The notes below the pieces were generated by a model. It had not been told where the DNA came from, searched no databases, and saw only the letters and a list, made by a program, of their open reading frames with translations. A program made the position numbers and the translations under genes. 64,000 bases of DNA from Hydrolagus colliei (lineage: Eukaryota): positions 23,994,001 through 24,058,000 of the forward strand of contig CM068747.1 of assembly GCA_035084275.1 (NCBI GenBank). Direction: 5' to 3'. Of this stretch, positions 5,423 through 57,538 are shown one piece after another (the first letter of the stretch is position 1; every line of letters begins with the position of its first letter).

Positions 5423-8010
5423 ATGTTCACTACATCCCAAATCCACATCCGCCGATCCTTGGGTTCTGGATTGGCTCTTAAGATTAGTCTGCAGATTCAT
5501 CCACTTCTTTCATCATTTCCTATGCAGTCATTCATCGATTTTCTACATCAGTAAGATTACCAAAAGCAGGAAAGGAAGCAGGGCAGGAAGCAGGGCAGGA
5601 GAAAGATGAATGAAGGATCTCCACACAAGTAAGGAGTGCTACAGACTAGTTGGGCCAAATGGCTGCTTCACAGCCCCCATCCAATCAACCACAACATCGA
5701 TGGGCAAGCTTTCAGCCACGCTGGTCCAAGAACAGCCAGGAAAGGCCTTTGAATCTCACTCTTGGGTAGCTTCTAGGCAGCCCTCATTGTTGGCAGACTC
5801 CGCCTGTACTTTATTAGGTTGGGTAGTAAGCATGTGGCTATATGTCACTGAGCTATTTATATATGTGGAAGACTGCAAGTCTGTGCTGTGTTACATGCAT
5901 CAAGAGGAAAAGAAAAACTATTCACAGCTCATTCCTGATGTTTCAACTTTTTTTCCCCACTTTCTGTGCTGCTCATGTTAATGAAATGAGCAAAAAAAAT
6001 CTTGAACGAAAACAACTACCCGTGGTATTGCTCTTTATCAACATGGTACTTCATGCACACAGCTTGCTATCATTAATGCAATATGACATCACATTTAATA
6101 ACAATTACAGGTAGTGTTATTGCCCCAAGTAGACCCATCAATAATCTCAAACAGTTAAAAAAAAATCCCTTTTGTAACCCTTACAAGTGATGCAAGCTTA
6201 AATGTATTCAAAACACCAGGAAATGAATGAAGCAGTGGGTTGCACAGCTTCATTTTTCACTCCTCAGACGTACAAATGTTAGGTTCTAATGTATTCCAGA
6301 ATCTTATGAAATCAAAATCTCGTATAAGAGCCTACAAATACCACTGCAATCAATGCAACATCAGCTCCCTGGCAAAGCCATTATATACTTCATATTAACA
6401 AAATTAAATACAACATTGACATTTACATTGATTTAAAATAACTGATGGCACTGTCAATTATTTTCGATTATTACGAAAGACACCAGCATTACAGGCAAAT
6501 GGCAAACAGTATTCTGTACATATATGTGTGCTGGTGTGCAAAGCAGGCAGGATTTATAAATGTTTGTTTCCCGCTACTGTGATGCGCTCTGAGATACCGT
6601 CTGGCATGGAGGGCGCTATATAAATCCAAGTTTTTGTTGTTGCTTCCAACACTTCAAGTTTTTTGACACACATTATACTGATGGCATATTGGTTTTCCTC
6701 AATTACCTTTAGAAATCAGGGATATATTTAATGAGATGTTTGTATTTTTAAAGAAGGATAATTGATGGAGAACATGAATTAAGAACATGTGACACTGTTA
6801 AAATCTTCACATTTGCCCAGCATCTACATTAGTTGTTGGCAGGTATTGTTGACAGGGATGTGTGAGATGAAGTAAGTTTCCATTTTATTTGTGCCTATCA
6901 CTGCATACTTTAAATCACAATAGACAATTTCACTATTTTAATACTTTGAAAATAAATATCTGATATGACAACAAGCAGGATTATCCTCTGTGTGTGTGGA
7001 TGGGGGGGAGGGGGGTAAACAGTGTCTCCTTGGTGATAAACTGGCTCAAGGAGACCTACTTCACAGCAGAATGTAGGAATCAAGTGAATCCTCTGTGGTT
7101 AGTTAGCTTAGTAGACTACTTTCTGAGCCATTTAGGTCCATGGACCTCCAGGGCACTGGTGATGACGCAGCCAGCTGGCTTGTCAGTAGGACTTGGGAGG
7201 GGCAGACTGGTCGGTCACTGGGGGCACAGACTCAACGCCTGTTAACCTTCCAAGCCAAAGCCCTAACAAGGAATGTGGTCCTATCTGCACACGAAGCTTG
7301 CCAGATAATGCGTTCAATTGCAAGCTGGACAGTTTTTGTTGGTTAAACTCTCGCAGTACCCCAAACACACATGCTGAGCTCCCCAAACCTTGACACTTGC
7401 CGACCTGTGTCTAAAATACTCCAGAATTAGCTAAGCATGGTGTATCCTGTTGAGTGTTGATCCAACTCCAAACGCAAGAATTTCTAAATTGTGTTAAGTT
7501 GTATAAATGGAGCTCTCTGGTCTGGATGCTCTTAATTACACTGAAATACTCCGCATGTGTCATTCTTTTGGCTGACCAAACAAAACTAGTATTTTAATTG
7601 CATTCATTTACATTGTGTGGCAAGGTGCAAGCCACAACTTTCCCTTTTGAATAATTTAAGGTAGTGATTTCACTTCTACCCATAACATAATTAAATAATG
7701 TACAGCTTGTATTACATTTCTGTACCGGTTTATCACTGCACACCTGTGCTCACCCTGACAAATACATTTCTGCAGCACCTGCTGATCAGAGGCCTACAAT
7801 TCTCATTTACGGTATTTTATTAGACCTTGATGTTTTCTAACTGTGTGTGTGTATGTACACACACATATATATATATTTACTGTATATACTGTATAAAGCT
7901 GTGAGTGTTATTCCAATGCAAACCTCCCCCCTCCCCGCTGGGCTGAGCTGACTCCAGGCCTGGGCCGGCTGCACACAGAGCGATGCCGAGTTCATGAGCA
8001 TTTCATTTAC

Positions 8011-11094: not shown

Positions 11095-11402
11095 GGAGTC
11101 CTGTAGCTCAGTGGTTAGAGCACTTGTCTTACAAGTGAGAGACCCGGGTTCAATTCCCGGCAGGGTGAAACCTTGGACAAGTTTCCTAACTCCACTTGTC
11201 TGCTAACAATCCATTTAAAAAAATGGTCAAATCAATCCACGACTGTTTGTGGGACATTGCCCTGCACAATCAGTTGCCGCATTCCTCCCCATATATATAC
11301 ACTACGGTATAAAAACAGTATATTCTGTGAAGCTCTGTGAGACATCTAGAAGATGTGAAAAGTGCTATATCAAATGCAAGGACTATTATTATTAAATAAT
11401 AA
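11095..11402 (+). mobile_element. Full-length tRNA-derived SINE
   Basis: Pol III A box TAGCTCAGTGG and B box GGTTCAATTCC, a body, and the tail tatcaaatgcaaggactattattatt; second copy at 20146. Confidence 0.85.
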
Positions 11403-18131: not shown

Positions 18132-20145
18132 ATGGAATAATCTATGGAATAATTATGGAATAATCTACTTATTGCAACAAATTCACTTACATAACCCACT
18201 CCAGGTCTGCCCCTACAAGATCCCGGTATAATCTTGTTTCCTATGCAGCACTTAGGGTAAAGCACCAGCCCGTCCTTCATAAAACAAAGCTTAATATCGA
18301 AAGGTTCTCCAAGCATTATATGACTCTAACGATGATAACGATTGTACATTGGGAATATCTCTGCCCCTATAAATGTACCGAGGTTCAGTGGCCTTCGTGA
18401 AATCTGTGTTAAGTTCTCTGCTATTGTGTTAAGACATTGCCACAAATTAGGTTTGTATTTATCAGAATTTACTTTTTGTCTGGATTGAACTCAAAACGAA
18501 ATCTCTATCTTTAGCATTGCACTACCTACCCCCAATCATCCACGAGTACTGAGTGAGGCCTTTCTCTTGTATTACTGCTGACATGAAACCATCCAGATAA
18601 AGCACTGTACTGACTTACCCGACATCCATGGAACATTAACCAGTAATATCCTCAAATGAAAAGCTTTGCAAAGCGGATCCAAATTTTAATTTATTGGCCC
18701 ATTGCGTTAATATACTAAGAATAAACAAAGACTTTAAAGGATCGTTGGGGGAATTAAATTGTACAAGTGGAACTATTCCCATACCAATGTGTATTTTTTT
18801 ATCCAACCCAAATATATGATTCTTACTACTGATAAATCCCATACGTATATATTAATCAGCATAATATGGGAATACTAACTACGTGTGCACAGGGAATGGT
18901 GGGAAGGAAAGAGAGGTGAGATGGATTCTGTGGTTCATTTGATGTCTTAGGAGAAAAAAAATGTTTTAAACGTTTTGTGTTATACGAAAATAAATAATCA
19001 ATTATACCCTGTATATACGAAATAGGTGGTAAAATGGATTCTAATGTAATAGATTCGCCAACCTAATTGAAAACGATTGGTTTATGCGACATCCACAATC
19101 ACATTTTAACGTAACAATCCTTCTGTTATATGCCACCAAGCGTGGAATTCAATGCCAGACCGCTATCCGATGAGGATCAGATCGAATCCACGCTTAAAAT
19201 AAAACATTAATCTTGTTTTTTAAGCCTTACTCCGGGATCAAACGCCATTTGCAATACAATTTGATTCCCAAATTATCAAAAGTTTTGTTCAAAAAACACA
19301 ATGCCCCGTTGATAGTGCAGCAAGTTATATTATATTGTTGCTGCATTTGCGATCTCTACAAGCAAACAGACCAGATTAATACAAGCCAATTGAGACTAAA
19401 TTAGCTGGAATTAATACGACAGATCCTTCCCTTGTGATGTCCCAAGGATTTCAGACTGAAGCATCCGAACACTAATTCTCTCTAATAATGTACAATTTTT
19501 TTTATTGAAACACAATGAAACACATATGATAGCGAATGTGTGGAGACATTAATTGGAATATTTGCTATTTTTATATTTTGAAGAAATGCTAAACCTGCAC
19601 ATGTACTATCACAAAAGCTTGTTGGTCTTATTTTAAAACAGCTGGAATTGATGGGTGATCAGTGAAGCAATGCACACACGTTTAAATACACTTGGGTAGA
19701 ACTCTGTTGAAAACAACTTGATGCAGAATCTTCTTGAATTTACAGGTCAGGTTTAGATGGAAACTCTTTGCCCATTCTATCTCATCCGCCCACAATACAA
19801 TCGCCCTGTCTTCACCCGGTTAAAATACATAGCTGTCATCTTAAATGACTTTGCCTTTAACACTCTTCCTGGTGACTGTTTCCAGGGATGAGGAAGGTCG
19901 GTTGTCATCTATGCAAACTAGTATCTCTTAGTGCCTCTCCGAATATGGTCCTTCTCAAAAATGAACCCATCCCACTAGCTTGCTATCCCTTGTGTGGTTT
20001 GGGGGTGTAACCTCTCTTCCCCGTTTAGCAAAAATGCGAGATAATTAAATGCTAATGTGTTACAACAAAAAACTAATGGGGCAGCATTGTACATAAACAT
20101 ATCTACTGAGCATTCCATGTACCTGACTTTATAGGTCAGGTACGA

Positions 20146-20460
20146 GGAGTTCTGTAGCTCTGTGGTTAGAGCACTCGCCTCGCAAGCGAGAGACCCGGGT
20201 TCGAATTCAGGCAGGGCGAAACCTTGGTCAAGTTTCCTTACTCCACATCCCGTTAATAATCCCTCAACAAAAAATAAGTTAATAATTAATCACTTCAATC
20301 CACGACTGCTCGTGGGACTCTTTCTGTAAGCAATCGGCTCCCACTTTTTGCCGCAAATATACAGTCAATTCACATTACAGTACAGTATATGTTGTGAAGC
20401 GATTTGTGGCGTCTAAAAAACATGGAAGCTCCATATCAAATGCAAGGATTATTATTTATT
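20146..20460 (+). mobile_element. Full-length tRNA(Ala-like)-derived SINE
   Basis: Head has an anticodon-arm-like CTCGC-CTCGCAA-GCGAG and B box GGTTCGAAT, with the same body and tail as the 11095 copy. Confidence 0.85.
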
Positions 20461-22939
20461 GTAAGATATTGGTCTGGGTTCAATCAATTATTATATAACT
20501 AAATACACGAAGAGGTCTGGTCAGGTGAGTCGTGCAAAGCAAATGTACCCATAGTTTAACACTTGGATTGCGTTAAATTCATTTAAATCTAGGCAACATA
20601 GGAGAAAGACTATTACAAATAAGATCAATGGAGATTATTTCCTTCATTCCCATTCATCGATGTGAGCAAGTGTATGTCCCGTCCAAGAGTAAACAAAATG
20701 GGTGCACTGTATATATCGATCAGCTTTAATGTTCTGAATGATAAAAATTGCGTTTATTCAGGATCGTTTGCACATGGCTTCCAACAGTTTCAGCCAAATA
20801 AATCATGTAACAGATTTATACCAGCGAGTCACTCTGCAGCCTTTCAAACTAATCCACACATCTCTTGCAATTGTCTTTAATGTGATGACTGGAGCGATTC
20901 GTTTCAATATAGAATTGGAACAGTTACGTTTCAACTGTTTGCTCTCAGTGAACCTTTTAGCTCCAATAAGGCATTTCAAGTGGAATAACTCTTGCCTTTC
21001 TACAATCTTCTTTTTGGGGGGAAAACATCTTCCATCACGTCTGCTCACATCTTAAGGGATTTTATACTATACAATATCTGAGCACATTGCCTGCGGGGAA
21101 CTCGGTGTGTTACTCCAAATATTAACGGTTTGAAGTTTTGTTTATAATACCAGAAATCAATTGGAAGCTGAAAAATTCAAACTCGCTATTGCATTGGTTC
21201 CATTTATATCCTGCAGCATGGTTCTGTGTCTGAAGTCATCTCTGTCACATTTTAAAAGATTCAGTATCGGATCATTGATTTGAAACTGCTCTTATATTAC
21301 AATTTCAGTCCTGAATCAATACTGGAGTGTGGCAGGAGGAATTTCACTTGCAATGCTACATAGATTTGAAGCTGGAACCCTGGCTGTATCTGGTCCCAAA
21401 TCGTCTTTTGGATGCTGAGGAGGGCTTTACCCATCAGCATCAATTTGTTTTGTATATTTGATGTATTTTGCAAGTTTGACTTACTGTTGTTTTCATATCA
21501 AATTTACAATACATTTCCATTGTAAATCGGGTTTGAAATATATGGAATTCCAAGTCGAACTTATTTTTCTTAAACTACCCCCAATAGGCGATTTCAAAAG
21601 AACATTCAATTTTTTTTCTTAATAAAGATAAGTTTTTGAATTGCCCATTGTAGCACAGTTAAGCTGTTTATTGTTCAAACAGCCAGATGTGTTGCCATCT
21701 CCCTTCCACTTCGCACCTCTTAAATGATATTAATATACCTACAAGGGGAACAGCAGACATGGCTGAATTTGTACTTATGTGTTTGTGATAAATGTTCACG
21801 GCGGAAAGTAAGCGCTGTCCCCTGGAGCCGAACACTTTGTGAGAAAATTAACTTTAAAGGGCAAACATGTCCAGAATAACCGAAGGCAAACTTGGAAGTC
21901 CAGTGCTTGCAAACCCAAGCCACAGTGGATACGGCGGCTCCACCTGATACACGTTATGTGTTGAGTTTTTTTCTCTGCTACAAATGTGAGTATCAAACTC
22001 AAGAGCGGCACCGAAGCTTTAACTGAAACTATTATAAATACTGTAGTTTGATTGGGTCAAGTGTCGCTTGATGCACTGAGCAACAGACCCCAGAAATTCA
22101 AAAAAAAGCTACGAAGAATGTGGTTCGATCAGCGACACTAAAGCAATATCAGGACTGACATTAATCGCTATCATGGAATATAGGGAGGCAATGGTTTTAT
22201 ATTGCTATCTAGGGCCATGCGTAATTTGCACGAATCGTACAATTCCAATAGGATGACTTTCCTGGAATTTGAAACGCTGCTATAAGACGTCAGTTGTTCA
22301 TATTTTAAGGAACTCTCTTAACTAAGAAACGTTACCCGTTTCGAGGTCAAACCAATAAATGTACACAAAACAGAGCGACTGTTAAGGAACAATATGAATA
22401 TTGCTGAAGCCTAAAATGGATTATTTTCACCCACGTTTCTACTACTGCAGTACAATATTGCATTTCTTTATCAGAGACATATGGTTTAGAGTCGCAACTC
22501 ACTGTTCCCTCTAGTTATCTCGCTAACACATACTGTAAATATCGAAATAACTCAATTGTCTGTCCACTGTTGAACAATTTAAGAGGGAAATCTGATTTTT
22601 TTAATTTAAGAACAGTCAGTAAGATTGAGCGACACGATGAGAAAGCCGCATAGGTGATACGTGCCATTATACAACTGCATATCAATTGTGCGTCAGCCAT
22701 AAAATAACATTAAATATTCATTTATGCAGTACTAAGGTGAACTTTGACCTTTAACTCTATATAAGGATAAGACATGTACATACCGACTTCATGTGCTGAT
22801 GGTGAAGCGAAAATCTGGTTTGGGGAAGGGGGGAGATAAGCATACATTTCCTTATCTTTTTTAAATATATATATTTCAAAATATACAATGTTCGCACATT
22901 AAATCGCAAGGAGGGTTTCAGAACCTGGATCAATTTCCA

Positions 22940-22956
22940 TGAACTTTCAGTGAACC
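22940..22956 (-). promoter_or_regulatory. DR5 retinoic acid response element 3' of HoxD1
   Basis: Minus strand GGTTCA-CTGAA-AGTTCA has two consensus half-sites and differs by one base from the mouse Hoxa1 3' RARE GGTTCA-CCGAA-AGTTCA. Confidence 0.75.
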
Positions 22957-25120
22957 TAATTCCTGAGGGAGGGGCGGTGGGGTTGCCTACTCTGGCTAAC
23001 CCTTCCACAACCCCTTTTCTCAGGCAGAGTAAATATTGAATACTCCTTCCGCTCCGGGCAGAAGTAAAACTGAATATCAAACAAGTGCAAAACTACTATT
23101 GTGACCCTCACAATACAGCCACAGTTACGAACAGTTTTCGTATTGTGCTAGTAAAACTCCCACCCCCACCCCCACCGTCTACAGAGACTTTAGGGAGTAA
23201 TCACAACTAGGATCAGAGGTATGATAACATAAAAGGGAGACAATAGGCGCCCAACAGAAAAGACCTGTAAGTTTATAACATGCAATCGCACTAGGAGATG
23301 TCATTTCCTGGGGGGGGGGGGGTGGGGGGGGGTAAGATAGCATTACTTACTTACGATGTTTCTATATATAGTATAATTTATATAAAGCTTTGAAACCAAT
23401 CTGCCGACCTATATTGGTTGGGCGAGCCTTAAAGCAAAGTTTAAATGCAAACAGCATCTTTGTTTAGATTCAGGGGTCGAACACGGTGCCGTTTCTCGAG
23501 GTAGCGAATATGGGTTGAGAGTCACCATCAAAGAATCGTAAATTCCATATCAAAAGATCTCAGAGCCGATTCCCAAGGAGGTCATTGTGAATTTTACGAC
23601 CTCAGCATTTCTTTGAAACACCGCTAACTCCCAGGACTGCTGTGTGTTATTTTAGTGGAACTGTCATTAACACGGAGCTGTTAGGACCAAATGTTGGAAA
23701 CATCTGAAAGAAAACACTGACTATTTCTGTTGTGCAACCAACTCCCCCCTCCCCACCCCCACTCTCTCTCTCCCCCTCCCCACCTCCCTCCCTGGTGTTG
23801 CTTTAAAAAATCACTTCCGGCACAAATCTGTTTGCTTTATATGTTTGATCTTTGCATATATCACCGTTAATGCCGAAGTCTTTTGAGATTTATTTGCTTC
23901 TATTACTTACACACACATTGAAGTGTAAAACGTCTTTGCCGAAAATCGCACTAATTGCATAAGATGGCCCTGAAACCTCAACTTTTCGAACGAACCAAAG
24001 ACTAAAGCTGATGAAACGAGCTAACTGCGTGTTTCGTTTTACAGTAACATGTTACACTACCATAGGGTATATTTTCCAACGTTATTTGTCAGTTCAACAA
24101 TCACATTTAAACACATCTATGTTTTGCTGAGGACTCGACCTGAATAAGAAACTGGTGAGGCCATTGCAACAATTTATTATTATTTGTAGTGATAGTCTAT
24201 ATTTTTTGTAAAAGGGGAGTCAGCATAACTTGTAACAATAGTTCAAATGGATGATTAAGACACTACAAGTAATCTGGACTAAAGGCTACGAGAGCCTTGA
24301 ATCAAATTAAAAGCCATGCACACCCATCTTTAAATAAGGCAACTGTGTCTTGAGGACAGAATAATGCCGTGATTATCCATTAGTAGATATTATTAAAGGA
24401 ATTCTCAGTGCAATGAGTTATTAAGAGTTCTATCGAACACAATTAAAAAGGTTTTTTTCAGCAGTTGGTTCATTTTCTTAAGAGTGATGGGTTTCCTTTT
24501 GAGTTACTTCCCTTCCTTGTGAAAGTGAGCCTTATACCTAAAGCGACATATGTATGAAACTTGTTTAAAATAAAACCAATCCAGCTCAGAAACAAACACT
24601 TAAATGGAAATGTCTATCTGGAACTGCTTAGTAGGCAGATGCATGTTTTTTTCCCTCAGTATTGATTGCTGAGTAGAAAGCTGCTGAGCAAAGATGTTCA
24701 ATCAAAATAGACTCATTAGAATTAGTTAATAATGCAAAGATCCGATCCCTTTCCTTGGCTTCACTTCCTATTGAAAGTTTGAGAATATATTTGTGGATTA
24801 AAATGTCAAGTGTAAAGACTTCAGTGCATCACTTAACCATAATCTTCAAAGCGGAATATGAAGTGATAATAATAACAAACATCATATCAATGAGCCTCAG
24901 AGGCGCGTAATCCTTCAAATGCACGAGTTTAGTTCAGACATCCCATCACATAGTTGGGTTGAATCTTTAGACTATTGGTCAGAAAATCACTCGCTGATTG
25001 ATTTAAAGTGGTGTGAAAATAACAGTTTCGATTGGAAAGGAACAGCGCTGCCTTATTGCTTACACCAAAGCTGCATGGAATTGCGTTACTGATCAAAATG
25101 ACAAAATGTGTTTTGTTTTT

Positions 25121-26028: not shown

Positions 26029-26378
26029 TCACAACACTGAGCTTGGAGTTGGTGTTGAGCTGTGTGCAGTGGGGGAAGGCAACGGCGAGGCAGTGTCCGA
26101 CTTATCCGAACTCTCTCCGGATGGTGAGTCCTGGTTACAGCCCAGAGAAGCCAGACTGGCCAGCAGACCTTCTCTCTCCCTCTTCTTCTGTTTCATTCTG
26201 CGGTTCTGGAACCAAATCTTCACCTGTGTCTCGTTGAGTTGAAGCGCGTTTGCTATCTCCACGCGGCGGGCTCGAGTCAAATACTTATTAAAGTGGAATT
26301 CCTTCTCCAGTTCGGTGAGCTGTTTGGTGGTGAAATTAGTGCGGACTGTGCTGGCAATCCCATATTCGGCTGTTTTCG
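26029..26378 (-). CDS. HOXD1: HoxD1 exon 2 (homeodomain)
   Basis: Acceptor ttattttgtag|CG; [60 protein letters not shown] is a paralogue-group-1 homeodomain. Joined with exon 1 the CDS is 951 nt (316 aa). Confidence 0.95.
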
Positions 26379-26805
26379 CTACAAAATAAGAAACAAAAAG
26401 AAACACAAGTTATAAAAGTGTTGTTGAGTGGGAACCAGACAAGTTTCACTCTTTACCATCACTATGCTATTATCAATCAGATATTGGGATCTACACATAA
26501 CAACACACGACTCAGTCCTCATCGTTACTTCCAAACGATAAGAGCACCACCAATAGTGCATCAAACCACAGGCAAGATACGGGTTCCACTAACTACCTCC
26601 ATTCACCCCCACATCATTTCAACATCATGGCATTGTGCTGATGAACGAGTTAATGCCCCCCCCCCCCCCCCCCCCCCAACACACACACACACACTCCCTA
26701 AATTTACAACCTAGAAACAGGCGTTCTCTGCAAACACAGGTTTACAGTTCCGGTGTGGAACGAGCTCTCTTAAACACAGGTCAGGAAACGGGAGACGAGG
26801 CTGAC

Positions 26806-27406
26806 CTGTTTTAGAATGATTCCGCTTCACTTTCATCCACTCGAACGTGTTTGCAGTGGCGGCACCTCTCCCTGTGGTGGGGGATTCCGGCCCCTGGTGA
26901 AAGCTGCCCTCAGACGGGGAGAGGCTCTGGTAATGTCCCGTGTAAAAGTTCGGGTACTCCTTGCCATAGGTTGGATATTGTCCCTGGTCGCCGAGTGAGA
27001 TGCTGTATTCCTGTTGGCGTTCAGTGAGCGGAAAAGATGCGTTTCCTGAGTAAACCGAGGTCGCGTAGGGGACCAAATCTCCACTGTCATCCAACTCCTG
27101 ATTAGCAGCCAAAGGAAAATCGTAGCCCAAATTACTCAGGGACAGGAGGTTGACGTCGACGGGTGCAGCGGAGTCGTAGGGCAGGTCGAGGCTGGGAGGC
27201 ACCGGCTGGTGCAGGTGATGGCGGTGATGATGATGATGATGATGAAGGTGGTGATGATGGCCGGGAGATGGATGATCACTTGTGGCTCCACCTGCGAAAC
27301 GGCGACCTTCTCTGGAGCACTGCTGAGGGGGGCCACTGCTGGGGCCAAACTTGGGTGGAAGAGTCAAAATATCCGCAGTGGAAACGTATTCCAGGTAAGA
27401 GTTCAT
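26806..27406 (-). CDS. HOXD1: HoxD1 exon 1
   Basis: MNSYLEYVS N-terminus, TFEWMKVKRN hexapeptide region (D1 type; A1 and B1 have TFDWM), donor ACAG|gtcag in phase 1; last Hox gene before MTX2. Confidence 0.95.
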
Positions 27407-34365: not shown

Positions 34366-35117
34366 TTAAAACTGTAGCTGCTGAAAATCTGTGGAGCCAA
34401 AATTGTCACTTAAAAAGTCAAACGCATTGGATGGTATAACCAGCGATTCCTCGTTTCCCAGCAAAGATATTTGCGGCAATTCCTCTATCAAATCTAGACG
34501 AGGTTCAATTGTAATTGTCTCTAAATCCTCCAGAGAAGGAAGGCTGAAACTCTCCGGGCTGCTCGGCGTGGTTCCACCAGAACAGTTCTCCAACATGGTG
34601 AGCGAGTAGTCTGTACCATCTGAGGTTTGAGGGAAATAGTGGCTGTGGTTACCCTCGATGTACGATAACGAAGTATCAATCACACTGAGCAGGTCACTGC
34701 TGATTTCATTCAATATGTCTTTATGGTGAGAGTCACCCAGATCTTGCCCAACAAAGTTTTCGGTCTCCAACGAATTCAAAGTTTTATTTACAGGTGTCTC
34801 GCCGGAGTTCTTTGTGGGAAATCCACTTTGATTCAACGCGGGGGTGTTAAAATGACGCTTGCAGTCATAGTTTTGGCTCTGCTTGAATCGAGACTGTCTC
34901 TTGTGTTTCATGCGCCTGTTCTGAAACCAGACCTTGACTTGCCTTTCTGTTAAATCGAGTAGGGCTGCGATTTCTACTCTCCGAGGTCTACAGAGGTATC
35001 TATTGTAATGGAACTCTTTTTCCAGCTCCAACAGCTGTGTGTTAGTGTAAGTGGTTCGTAGCCTCCTAGAGCTGTCAAAGGGACCGCCATTGTCTGTTTC
35101 ATTAAGCTCTTCGTTTT
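34366..35117 (-). CDS. HOXD2: HoxD2 exon 2 (homeodomain)
   Basis: Acceptor ccttcgatacag|AA; [58 protein letters not shown] is a PG2 homeodomain. Joined CDS is 1098 nt (365 aa) with no internal stop. Confidence 0.93.
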
Positions 35118-35551
35118 CTGTATCGAAGGGGAGGGTGGTGGGGGGGAAAGTTTTAATAAGTTACAACGGTATTTTCTTAATAAGCTAGTGGTATAAAATG
35201 GCCGCCACTCACACACAAAAGATACTGTTTAAGCAAAACACTGGCCCAAGCAAAGCAACGGAAAAGGTGATGCAGATAAATTATTCGCCATAATCTTGCA
35301 TTTAAAAGGAGTTTAGATTCTTCAAAAACACAGCACGAGGTGTGCTTCAGATTCCGAGCATCTCTTTAACTGTTCATTATCTATGGTTAAGTGCAACGTT
35401 GAGCCTGTGATGGTTATACAGGTAGCTACACCTTTCTGTTAATTCGAGTCGTTGCACGATTTCTAAGATTGTTTTTTTAATGTCCCCCAACACACTGCAC
35501 CACCGCCGGTGACGATACGAAATACTAAAGGAAAAATGAGTTTAACCTGAC

Positions 35552-35897
35552 CTTCATTGGAAGAGCAAGACGAGAATGATCCTGTTGCTGGGGCTGTTTT
35601 TTTCTTATGGTTTTTCTTGTCTCTCATCCACGGATATTCCAGAGGTTTTTCCCCTAACGTGGCCCGGCCAGTGCCTTTTGAAGTGTGGCTTCTCCCATTT
35701 TGCTGTGTGTTACCATGGTCCAGGCTGCAGGAGCTTTGCTCAGAAGGAGGAGGAATCAGTGTCGAATGTGAAAGCGTCGAGTTCTTGATTGATGAACTTT
35801 GAAATGTCTCGCCAACAGGAGGAAAGCAAGTCAGGCACTCGGCAAGCGATGGCTCACTATTGATAAAGCCAACCTCTCGCTCAAACTCGTTGTTCAT
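35552..35897 (-). CDS. HOXD2: HoxD2 exon 1
   Basis: MNNEFEREVGFINSEPSLAECLT is a PG2 N-terminus; EYPWM hexapeptide; donor GAAG|gtcag in phase 1; lies between HoxD1 and HoxD3. Confidence 0.93.
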
Positions 35898-36078
35898 TTC
35901 TGCCAGGGCAGAATCGGTAGAAAATTGGCTTATTTGACAACTTTCTTTGAAAAAAAATGTATATTTATATATATATATATTTAAAGTACTGATTACAAAC
36001 GCTTAGGGACAGTGCTATTATTAAACTATGTCCATTGAATACACAGACACGATGTTGAGATGAGGCTGATTTTATCGT

Positions 36079-44503: not shown

Positions 44504-44520
44504 TGAACTCTGCTTGAACC
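44504..44520 (-). promoter_or_regulatory. DR5 RARE upstream of the HoxD3 coding exons
   Basis: Minus strand GGTTCA-AGCAG-AGTTCA, a perfect DR5 resembling the PG3 RARE (GGTTCA-AGAAG-AGTTCA at Hoxa3/Hoxb3, from recall). A Pbx/Hox-type TGATTTATGG lies about 20 nt away. Confidence 0.8.
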
Positions 44521-57521: not shown

Positions 57522-57538
57522 TGTCCTCTTGGTGAACC
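57522..57538 (-). promoter_or_regulatory. HoxD4 3' neural-enhancer DR5 RARE
   Basis: Minus strand GGTTCA-CCAAG-AGGACA followed by AA-TTTTCTA; the mouse Hoxd4 3' RARE is GGTTCA-CCCAG-AGGACA with a TTTTCTG element 2 nt downstream. Confidence 0.85.

What the first reader, a model, noticed from the sequence alone, without database searches (positions are those of the whole stretch)
22940..22956. Hoxa1-type 3' RARE retained downstream of HoxD1
GGTTCACTGAAAGTTCA matches the classic Hoxa1 3' RARE at 16/17 nt, spacer included, in the same orientation and about 4.4 kb downstream of the ATG, a comparable position. 3' RAREs are well characterised for Hoxa1 and Hoxb1, but I know of no equally established one for HoxD1. 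This looks like a pre-duplication Hox1 enhancer kept on the D cluster in this lineage.
Basis: partly seen in the sequence, partly recalled or inferred. Interest (0 to 1): 0.7.

Follow-up and report, generated by a model that had tools for sequence, protein, structure and literature searches.

The report
Ancient retinoic-acid enhancer behind chimaera HoxD1
Just downstream of the body-plan gene HoxD1 in a chimaera (a cartilaginous fish) lies a third copy of the DNA module found behind HoxA1 and HoxB1, with the same blocks in the same order; it likely lets vitamin A (retinoic acid) switch HoxD1 on and likely predates the early vertebrate genome doublings, but its activity is untested.

Summary
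Confirmed, and larger than reported. A perfect DR5 lies at 22940-22956 (minus strand), 3.07 kb past the stop of an intact chimaera HoxD1. The flanks are the real evidence. A 340-bp module (13-bp Fox-like block, DR5, adjacent AT-rich block, then a DR1 plus an AT-rich block 206 bp on) recurs in the same order behind this genome's HoxA1 and HoxB1. A search of the 1-Gb genome with it hits only the HoxA1 copy besides itself (E 4e-7). HoxC1 lacks it. In a distant relative the DR5-bearing block is 93% identical against 87% for four distal blocks, but the DR5 bases themselves could not be read. So it is a paralogue of the Hoxa1/Hoxb1 3' retinoic-acid enhancer, inherited from before the cluster duplications. 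RAR/RXR binding, RA response and target gene are inferred, not shown. Nine literature searches turned up no HoxD1 3' RARE, but key papers were unreadable. The scan had not noted it on other DNA. New member of a known kind; interest 0.45.

The parts
22697..23039 (-). Whole composite module, paralogous to the HoxA1 and HoxB1 3' modules of the same genome
   Evidence: Three-way alignment; local-alignment score 82 (A) and 83 (B) against shuffle means of about 25, maximum 42 of 300; reciprocal genome-wide hits D to A and A to D
23027..23039 (-). Upstream block TCAATATTTACTC, identical in A, B and D, 77-91 bp before the DR5; fits a FoxA/HNF3 consensus (consensus recalled)
   Evidence: with a DR5 55-85 bp on, it occurs at exactly 3 places in the genome (pattern built from those three)
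22940..22956 (-). DR5 retinoic-acid response element GGTTCA ctgaa AGTTCA (the reported feature)
   Evidence: mouse Hoxa1 and Rarb sequence in PMC7259794 Table 2
22925..22937 (-). Block directly 3' of the DR5 (GAAATTGATCCAG; A and B read GAAATTAATTCAG), degenerate on D
   Evidence: 5 and 3 of 1000 shuffles reach the score; a 4-base insertion here in close relative B
22738..22750 (-). DR1 AGGTCA a AGTTCA, 206 bp after the DR5 start (A: identical, 207 bp; B: AGGTCA a GGTCG-type, 248 bp); a site of the HNF4/COUP-TF/RXR kind (recalled)
   Evidence: loose end in distant relative D reads GGGTCA a AGTTCG
22697..22725 (-). AT-rich block ATAAATGAATATTTAATG followed by TTTATGG (Cdx/Hox-like, recalled), at a fixed distance from the DR1 in A, B and D
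   Evidence: 0 of 1000 shuffles reach the score against A or B; DR1-plus-block pattern at exactly 3 places in the genome (pattern built from those three)
26029..27406 (-). HoxD1, two exons, intact 316 aa; the likely target gene

Best explanation
This is the HoxD1 copy of the composite module that also lies 3' of HoxA1 and HoxB1 in the same chimaera genome, likely inherited from the single ancestral vertebrate Hox cluster, and it likely still works as a retinoic-acid-inducible enhancer of HoxD1. Shown: DR5 consensus, position, orientation, four shared blocks in the same order, specificity in the genome. Inferred from the mouse and human A and B copies: an RXR/RAR heterodimer sits on the DR5, represses without ligand and activates with retinoic acid during gastrulation. 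Inferred from recalled motifs only: a FoxA-type factor at the invariant upstream block opens the module in endoderm, notochord and floor plate, while the DR1 and the AT-rich block add input from a second nuclear receptor and a homeodomain factor. D keeps a reduced version: it lacks the opposite-strand DR2 and the third half-site that A and B share.
For: Genome-wide DNA search with window 22650-23100 gives one hit outside the locus, the HoxA1 3' module (E 4.2e-7), and the reverse search returns D (E 3.9e-7). With the DR5 masked the scores stay at 82 (A) and 72 (B) against shuffle maxima of 39 and 44; each flank block is significant on its own. Cross-module controls between other RARE modules score 23-35. 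Spacing DR5 to DR1 is 206 against 207 bp and ATG to DR5 is 4450 against 4481 bp in D and A. In distant relative D the block 22922-23130 has 14 differences in about 204 aligned bases against 75 in 564 for four distal blocks, with further stretches not alignable at 80% (Fisher p 0.015). Both half-sites are perfect after what must be a very long separation from A and B, while the DNA between blocks aligns poorly. The A and B counterparts are RARA-bound in human pharyngeal endoderm (PMC11312149), and the mouse Hoxa1 one is required in vivo (PMC7259794). Three RARE modules score A-B above A-D and B-D, and C-D high where C exists, which fits D splitting from A/B at the deepest node.
Against: No binding, chromatin, reporter or expression data for this element or species. 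The DR5 bases in distant relative D were not displayed (table cut), and 2 of the 4 runs laid, plus X13, did not cover them. The three close relatives that keep the DR5 are about 99% identical throughout, so they say nothing. The runs were found with this same stretch, which favours high identity there; the second block (22532-22735) is not significantly above background (p 0.16). D shows decay relative to A/B: no DR2, no third half-site, a degenerate 3'-adjacent block, a DR1 changed in relative D. In mouse ES cells the HoxD cluster shows little RAR occupancy (PMC4510006), and none of 97 human RARA peaks is at HOXD, though mammals may simply lack the element. No shark, bony-fish or tetrapod orthologue could be fetched. 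The two composite patterns were built from the three copies, so they show specificity, not homology.
Confidence: 0.7

Rival explanations
1. The module is truly paralogous and active, but its main job is not RA induction of HoxD1. It serves the 3' end of the cluster as a whole (HoxD2, HoxD3, antisense RNAs) or MTX2, or selection acts on the Fox and DR1 blocks with the DR5 as a COUP-TF/RXR or repressive site.
For: The strongest D-A similarity is the DR1 plus AT-rich block, not the DR5. Hox RAREs often act on several genes and non-coding RNAs (PMC8788451; PMC4510006). HoxD2 is intact in this window. The MTX2 start is about 15 kb away.
Against: The position is fixed relative to the Hox1 gene in three clusters with different downstream distances. 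The DR5 is a perfect consensus and lies in the best-conserved long block in relative D.
Confidence: 0.14
2. It is a decaying relic: homologous by descent but no longer functional on D, still recognisable because chimaera genomes evolve slowly.
For: Loss of the DR2 and third half-site, degenerate adjacent block, insertion in relative B, DR1 change in relative D. HoxC1 has lost the module. HoxD1 exon 1 is 76% identical to its C. milii orthologue against 94% for HoxA1.
Against: The spacers between blocks have diverged beyond clear alignment while a 13/13 block, both half-sites and an 18-bp block survive. Identity is raised over the DR5 block in relative D. HoxD1 is intact.
Confidence: 0.11
3. The DR5 arose independently or by chance behind HoxD1, or was copied late from the A cluster by conversion or transposition.
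For: The 17-mer is a favoured RARE form: identical in mouse Rarb and Hoxa1, with near-copies on contig C1. D-A spacing is almost identical.
Against: Three non-RARE blocks match in order and stay significant without the DR5. D is equally close to A and to B (82 and 83). The module is single-copy, not a repeat, and the DNA between blocks is diverged.
Confidence: 0.05

Closest known systems
Mouse/human Hoxa1 3' DR5 retinoic-acid enhancer ('RAIDR5'; Langston and Gudas 1992, Langston et al. 1997, Dupe et al. 1997, seen here only as references and in passages of PMC7259794, PMC4510006, PMC11312149)
   Same: Perfect DR5, 16/17 identical; same strand as the gene; about 4.5 kb from the gene start; flank blocks shared with the chimaera HoxA1 orthologous region.
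   Different: Lies on the D cluster; lacks the DR2 and third half-site seen at chimaera HoxA1; no functional test. Whether my blocks are the published CE1 and CE2 (names recalled) could not be checked.
Hoxb1 3' DR5 enhancer (listed in PMC4009813 Table 1; RARA-bound in PMC11312149; gut expression role recalled from Huang et al. 1998)
   Same: All four blocks are shared with the chimaera HoxB1 copy; score 83; DR5 15/17 identical.
   Different: The B copy is 5.0 kb from the stop (D 3.07 kb) and has 248 bp from DR5 to DR1; B also carries the separate 3' DR2 that D lacks.
Amphioxus Hox1 3' DR5 RARE (Manzanares 2000, Wada 2006, as described in PMC3227721)
   Same: A DR5 3' of a Hox1 gene; it already implies that a Hox1 3' RARE predates the vertebrate duplications.
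   Different: No amphioxus sequence was available, so whether it has the Fox, DR1 and AT-rich blocks is untested.
Rarb2 promoter DR5
   Same: The same 17-mer as the mouse Hoxa1 RARE, hence also 16/17 to this element.
   Different: Promoter-proximal and in an unrelated gene; shows that core identity alone is not homology.

Membership tests
DR5 retinoic-acid response element | Two RGKTCA half-sites in direct repeat, 5 bases apart | tested here: met
   Perfect match at 22940-22956, minus strand
DR5 retinoic-acid response element | Bound by RAR/RXR and confers an RA-dependent response | not testable with these tools
   No binding or reporter data; human A and B counterparts are bound
DR5 retinoic-acid response element | Half-sites conserved across species | tested here: inconclusive
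   Unchanged in 3 of 3 close relatives that are about 99% identical anyway; block 93% identical in a distant relative but per-base table cut
Hox1 3' RA-inducible DR5 enhancer (Hoxa1/Hoxb1 type) | DR5 a few kb 3' of a Hox1 gene, on the gene's strand | tested here: met
   3073 bp from the stop; A 2958, B 5008; 4450 bp from the ATG
Hox1 3' RA-inducible DR5 enhancer (Hoxa1/Hoxb1 type) | Conserved non-RARE blocks around the DR5, shared with the A and B copies | tested here: met
   Three further blocks in the same order, each above shuffles; tested against chimaera A and B only
Hox1 3' RA-inducible DR5 enhancer (Hoxa1/Hoxb1 type) | Blocks correspond to the published CE1 and CE2 | not testable with these tools
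   The primary papers were seen only as references; one search returned no paper with the sequences
Hox1 3' RA-inducible DR5 enhancer (Hoxa1/Hoxb1 type) | [quoted passage not shown] | not testable with these tools
   No expression or deletion data; no RNA run was laid
Paralogous conserved non-coding element from the vertebrate genome duplications | Single-copy sequence at the matching position of paralogous clusters, similar beyond chance | tested here: met
   present at A1, B1, D1 (3 of 4 Hox1 genes), not found in 24 kb 3' of C1
Paralogous conserved non-coding element from the vertebrate genome duplications | Orthologues in other jawed-vertebrate lineages | not testable with these tools
   No vertebrate genomes besides G000; two metagenome scans empty
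Hoxb1 3' DR2 enhancer (considered, not filed) | DR2 between the stop codon and the DR5 | tested here: not met
   Present on the opposite strand at A and B; no match on D or C above shuffles

The most novel reading that the evidence does not exclude
The four-block grammar (Fox site, DR5, adjacent block, DR1 plus AT-rich block) is the Hox1 RA enhancer of the vertebrate ancestor, assembled before the first genome doubling. It still drives HoxD1 in cartilaginous fishes and probably in amphibians, where hoxd1 is an early RA target (recalled) with no mapped RARE that I could find. Its loss in mammals would be the cis change that took Hoxd1 out of RA-dependent axial patterning and freed it for new roles.
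Probability: 0.3. Interest if true: 0.7.

Novelty: new member of a known kind. Interest (0 to 1): 0.45.

Why it matters
Known Hox1 3' RAREs are those of Hoxa1, Hoxb1 and amphioxus Hox1; the lists of Hox RAREs I could read name none for Hoxd1. A third vertebrate paralogue, on the cluster that appears to have split first from A and B, dates the whole composite module (not only the DR5) to before the duplications. It also points out which cofactor sites were there from the start. It gives exact short motifs with which to look for the element behind HoxD1 in sharks, gar, coelacanth, frog, chick and mammals. That makes it directly testable when HoxD1 lost or kept direct RA control. It refines an accepted picture rather than overturning one.

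Tried and rejected
The 16/17 core match as proof of homology: rejected. A repeat or RNA gene at the site: rejected (single-copy; Rfam finds only mir-10 and two tRNA-like matches elsewhere in the window). A HoxC1 copy: not found by fuzzy motif scan of 24 kb, by alignment, or by genome-wide patterns; the only assembly gap in the fetched C stretch lies 5' of HoxC1. A DR2 on D: none. Two scans of metagenome contigs for vertebrate copies: 0 matches each. In X13, X14, X15 and X16 a piece at 22699-22749 has loose ends that match the HoxA1 flank, so it is the paralogue and was left out of the conservation count. Blocks under 100 bases (22227-22271, 22330-22382) were also left out of the Fisher test; both are well conserved (3 of 45 and 4 of 53 differences), so the contrast is less sharp with them. 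The perfect DR5 in an MTX2 intron (C14:23985477) shows no clear similarity to the module (scores 18-43). Papers not held: Ravi 2009, Matsunami 2010 (27), Kim 2000 (43), and three ids given from recall for Lalevee 2011, Santini 2003 and Marletaz 2006 (49, 50, 68). The supplement of PMC4009813 with RARE alignments could not be read. These may bear on novelty and on the CE1/CE2 naming.

Full report
Setting. The window is contig C14 of a 1.0-Gb genome and holds, on the minus strand, Hox4, Hox3, Hox2 and Hox1 genes, mir-10 and the first exons of MTX2 (found with recalled motifs, with only a weak Pfam Tom37 hit). The Hox1 gene is HoxD1 of a chimaera: best hit C. milii HoxD1 at 76% over exon 1, intact, 316 aa. 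The genome has four Hox1 genes, on C14, C2, C35 and C39. C2 is HoxA1 (94% to C. milii HoxA1). C35 is taken as HoxB1 and C39 as HoxC1 from recalled sequence features and by elimination; no search confirmed these two labels.

Observation. The 17-mer is at 22940-22956, minus strand, a perfect DR5; the window has 2 such sites against 0.12 expected. It lies 4450 bp from the ATG and 3073 bp from the stop. PMC7259794 Table 2 prints the mouse Hoxa1 RARE as GGTTCA CCGAA AGTTCA, so 16/17 is right, but prints the same 17-mer for Rarb (also PMC2764571). A looser 17-mer pattern finds 4 sites in the genome, 2 of them on C1 outside the Hox clusters. The core match therefore cannot separate descent from convergence.

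What the flanks show. Both HoxA1 and HoxB1 of this genome have a perfect DR5 3' of the gene. Aligning the three regions shows four blocks in the same order: an invariant 13-mer 77-91 bp upstream; the DR5; a GAAATT-led block directly after it; and a DR1 followed at fixed spacing by an 18-bp AT-rich block and a TTTAT motif, 206 (D), 207 (A) and 248 (B) bp on. Local-alignment scores are 82 (D-A) and 83 (D-B) against 300 dinucleotide shuffles with mean about 25 and maximum 42 and 38. With the DR5 masked they are 82 and 72; with DR5 and DR1 masked, 48 and 50. Separately, the upstream 100 bp is reached by 1 and 0 of 1000 shuffles, the 30 bp after the DR5 by 5 and 3, and the 50 bp after the DR1 by 0 and 0 (windows chosen after seeing the alignment). 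The unbiased test is the genome-wide search: window 22650-23100 hits itself, the HoxA1 3' region (E 4.2e-7) and one trivial self-match; the A region returns only itself and D. B was not recovered by these searches, which score only the best candidates. Two composite patterns each match exactly A1, B1 and D1 in 1 Gb with 0 control matches; they were built from those three, so they show only that there is no fourth copy. HoxC1 has none of the blocks. A and B share an opposite-strand DR2 1.3-1.5 kb from the stop and a third half-site; D has neither.

Age. As positive controls, the Hox3 upstream and Hox4 upstream RARE modules score A-B 263 and 198, C-D 143, and 68-86 across the two pairs; the Hox1 module scores A-B 117, A-D 82, B-D 83; mismatched modules score 23-35. 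This pattern fits ((A,B),(C,D)). It is a similarity pattern, not a tree. If right, a module on A, B and D was present before the deepest cluster split. That a Hox1 3' DR5 is older than vertebrates is already known from amphioxus (PMC3227721).

Conservation in relatives. Eighteen runs were listed and 8 laid. Relatives B and C and run X8 keep the DR5 but are about 99% identical throughout. In the more distant relative D, runs X12 and X15 (two studies) cover 22922-23130 with 14 differences and 5 gap positions; X13, X14 and X16 did not cover it. Four distal blocks of 100 bases or more have 75 differences in 564, and several intervals do not align at 80%; Fisher p 0.015. The runs were found with this stretch, which biases the comparison, and two short distal blocks left out of the count are as well conserved. 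The list of differences was cut before the DR5, so its bases in relative D are unknown. A loose end shows that relative D's DR1 reads GGGTCA a AGTTCG, like the B copy at the last base.

Mechanism. The A and B counterparts are RARA-bound, DR5-bearing enhancers that open with RA in human pharyngeal endoderm, where FOXA1/2 are active (PMC11312149), and the mouse Hoxa1 RARE is required in vivo. By descent and by its perfect half-sites the D copy most likely binds RXR/RAR and activates HoxD1 with RA (inferred, 0.7). The upstream 13-mer fits a recalled FoxA consensus that occurs 7 times in the window; the roles given to it, to the DR1 and to the AT-rich block are motif-level guesses. Against function: signs of decay on D; little RAR occupancy on mouse HoxD (PMC4510006); 0 of 97 human RARA peaks at HOXD. 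PMC7706710 describes mouse Hoxd1 as neofunctionalised through regulatory change, which would fit loss of this element in mammals; I could not look at any mammalian sequence.

Literature. Searches were seen as listings with abstract starts; one search was for the 17-mer. Term-matched passages were read in PMC3227721, PMC4470032, PMC8788451, PMC3707753, PMC2764571, PMC4510006, PMC6031401, PMC6767176, PMC3595034, PMC7259794 (plus a term search of 4 supplements), PMC4009813, PMC10879103, PMC7706710, PMC6131192 and PMC11312149 (plus all of Table S6); none was read whole. None of those passages names a HoxD1 3' RARE, and the lists omit it. [quoted passage not shown] The Xenopus hoxd1 response to RA and the names CE1/CE2 are recalled. 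The scan's own notes hold nothing on this element; two notes led me to PMC7259794.

Verdict. A real paralogous conserved element, a new member of the Hox1 3' DR5 enhancer kind. Descent about 0.95; working RA enhancer of HoxD1 about 0.7; interest 0.45.

Noticed in passing
window 44504-44520 (-): Second perfect DR5, upstream of HoxD3; the paralogous sites in A and B read GGTTCA agaag AGTTCA, the sequence printed for mouse chr6:52175533 in PMC7259794 Table 2, while D has the spacer agcag.
   Followed up: partly
window 57522-57538 (-): One-mismatch DR5 GGTTCA ccaag AGGACA 3' of HoxD4, probably the known Hoxd4 3' RARE (recalled).
   Followed up: no
G000 C14:24058533, C2:51456662, C35:2979808, C39:2351699: A DR5 upstream of Hox4 with shared flanks on all four clusters, the D copy just outside the window; a further perfect DR5 at C14:24060867 has no counterpart among the stretches fetched.
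   Followed up: partly
G000 C2:51495653 (-) and C35:3022962 (-): Chimaera HoxA1 carries an opposite-strand DR2 that aligns with the HoxB1 3' DR2 region (score 58), so that element is also shared by A and B.
   Followed up: partly
window 34366-36002 (-): HoxD2 appears intact in two exons; the gene is absent from tetrapods and teleosts (recalled).
   Followed up: no
G000 C39:2379696-2381667: HoxC1 is strongly diverged, sits in SINE-rich DNA and has none of the 3' module's blocks.
   Followed up: partly
G000 C1:2362796 and C1:116214933 (-): Two non-Hox DR5 sites 16/17 identical to the HoxD1 site; neighbouring genes not examined.
   Followed up: no
G000 C14:23985477 (+); window 7989-8005 (+): A perfect DR5 in an MTX2 intron and a one-mismatch DR5 just after the likely MTX2 first exon; no similarity to the Hox1 module was seen for the first.
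   Followed up: partly
window 20710-20870, 21715-21912, 21985-22088, 22227-22382: Further non-coding blocks 3' of the module that align at 84-93% with distant relative D; about 590 bp at 21128-21714 is absent there.
   Followed up: no
window 20130-20460 and 11097-11168: tRNA-derived SINE-like repeats that also occur in the A, B and C 3' regions and dominate raw BLAST comparisons.
   Followed up: partly
window 27200-27270 (-): HoxD1 exon 1 encodes a long histidine run, longer than the one in this genome's HoxA1.
   Followed up: no
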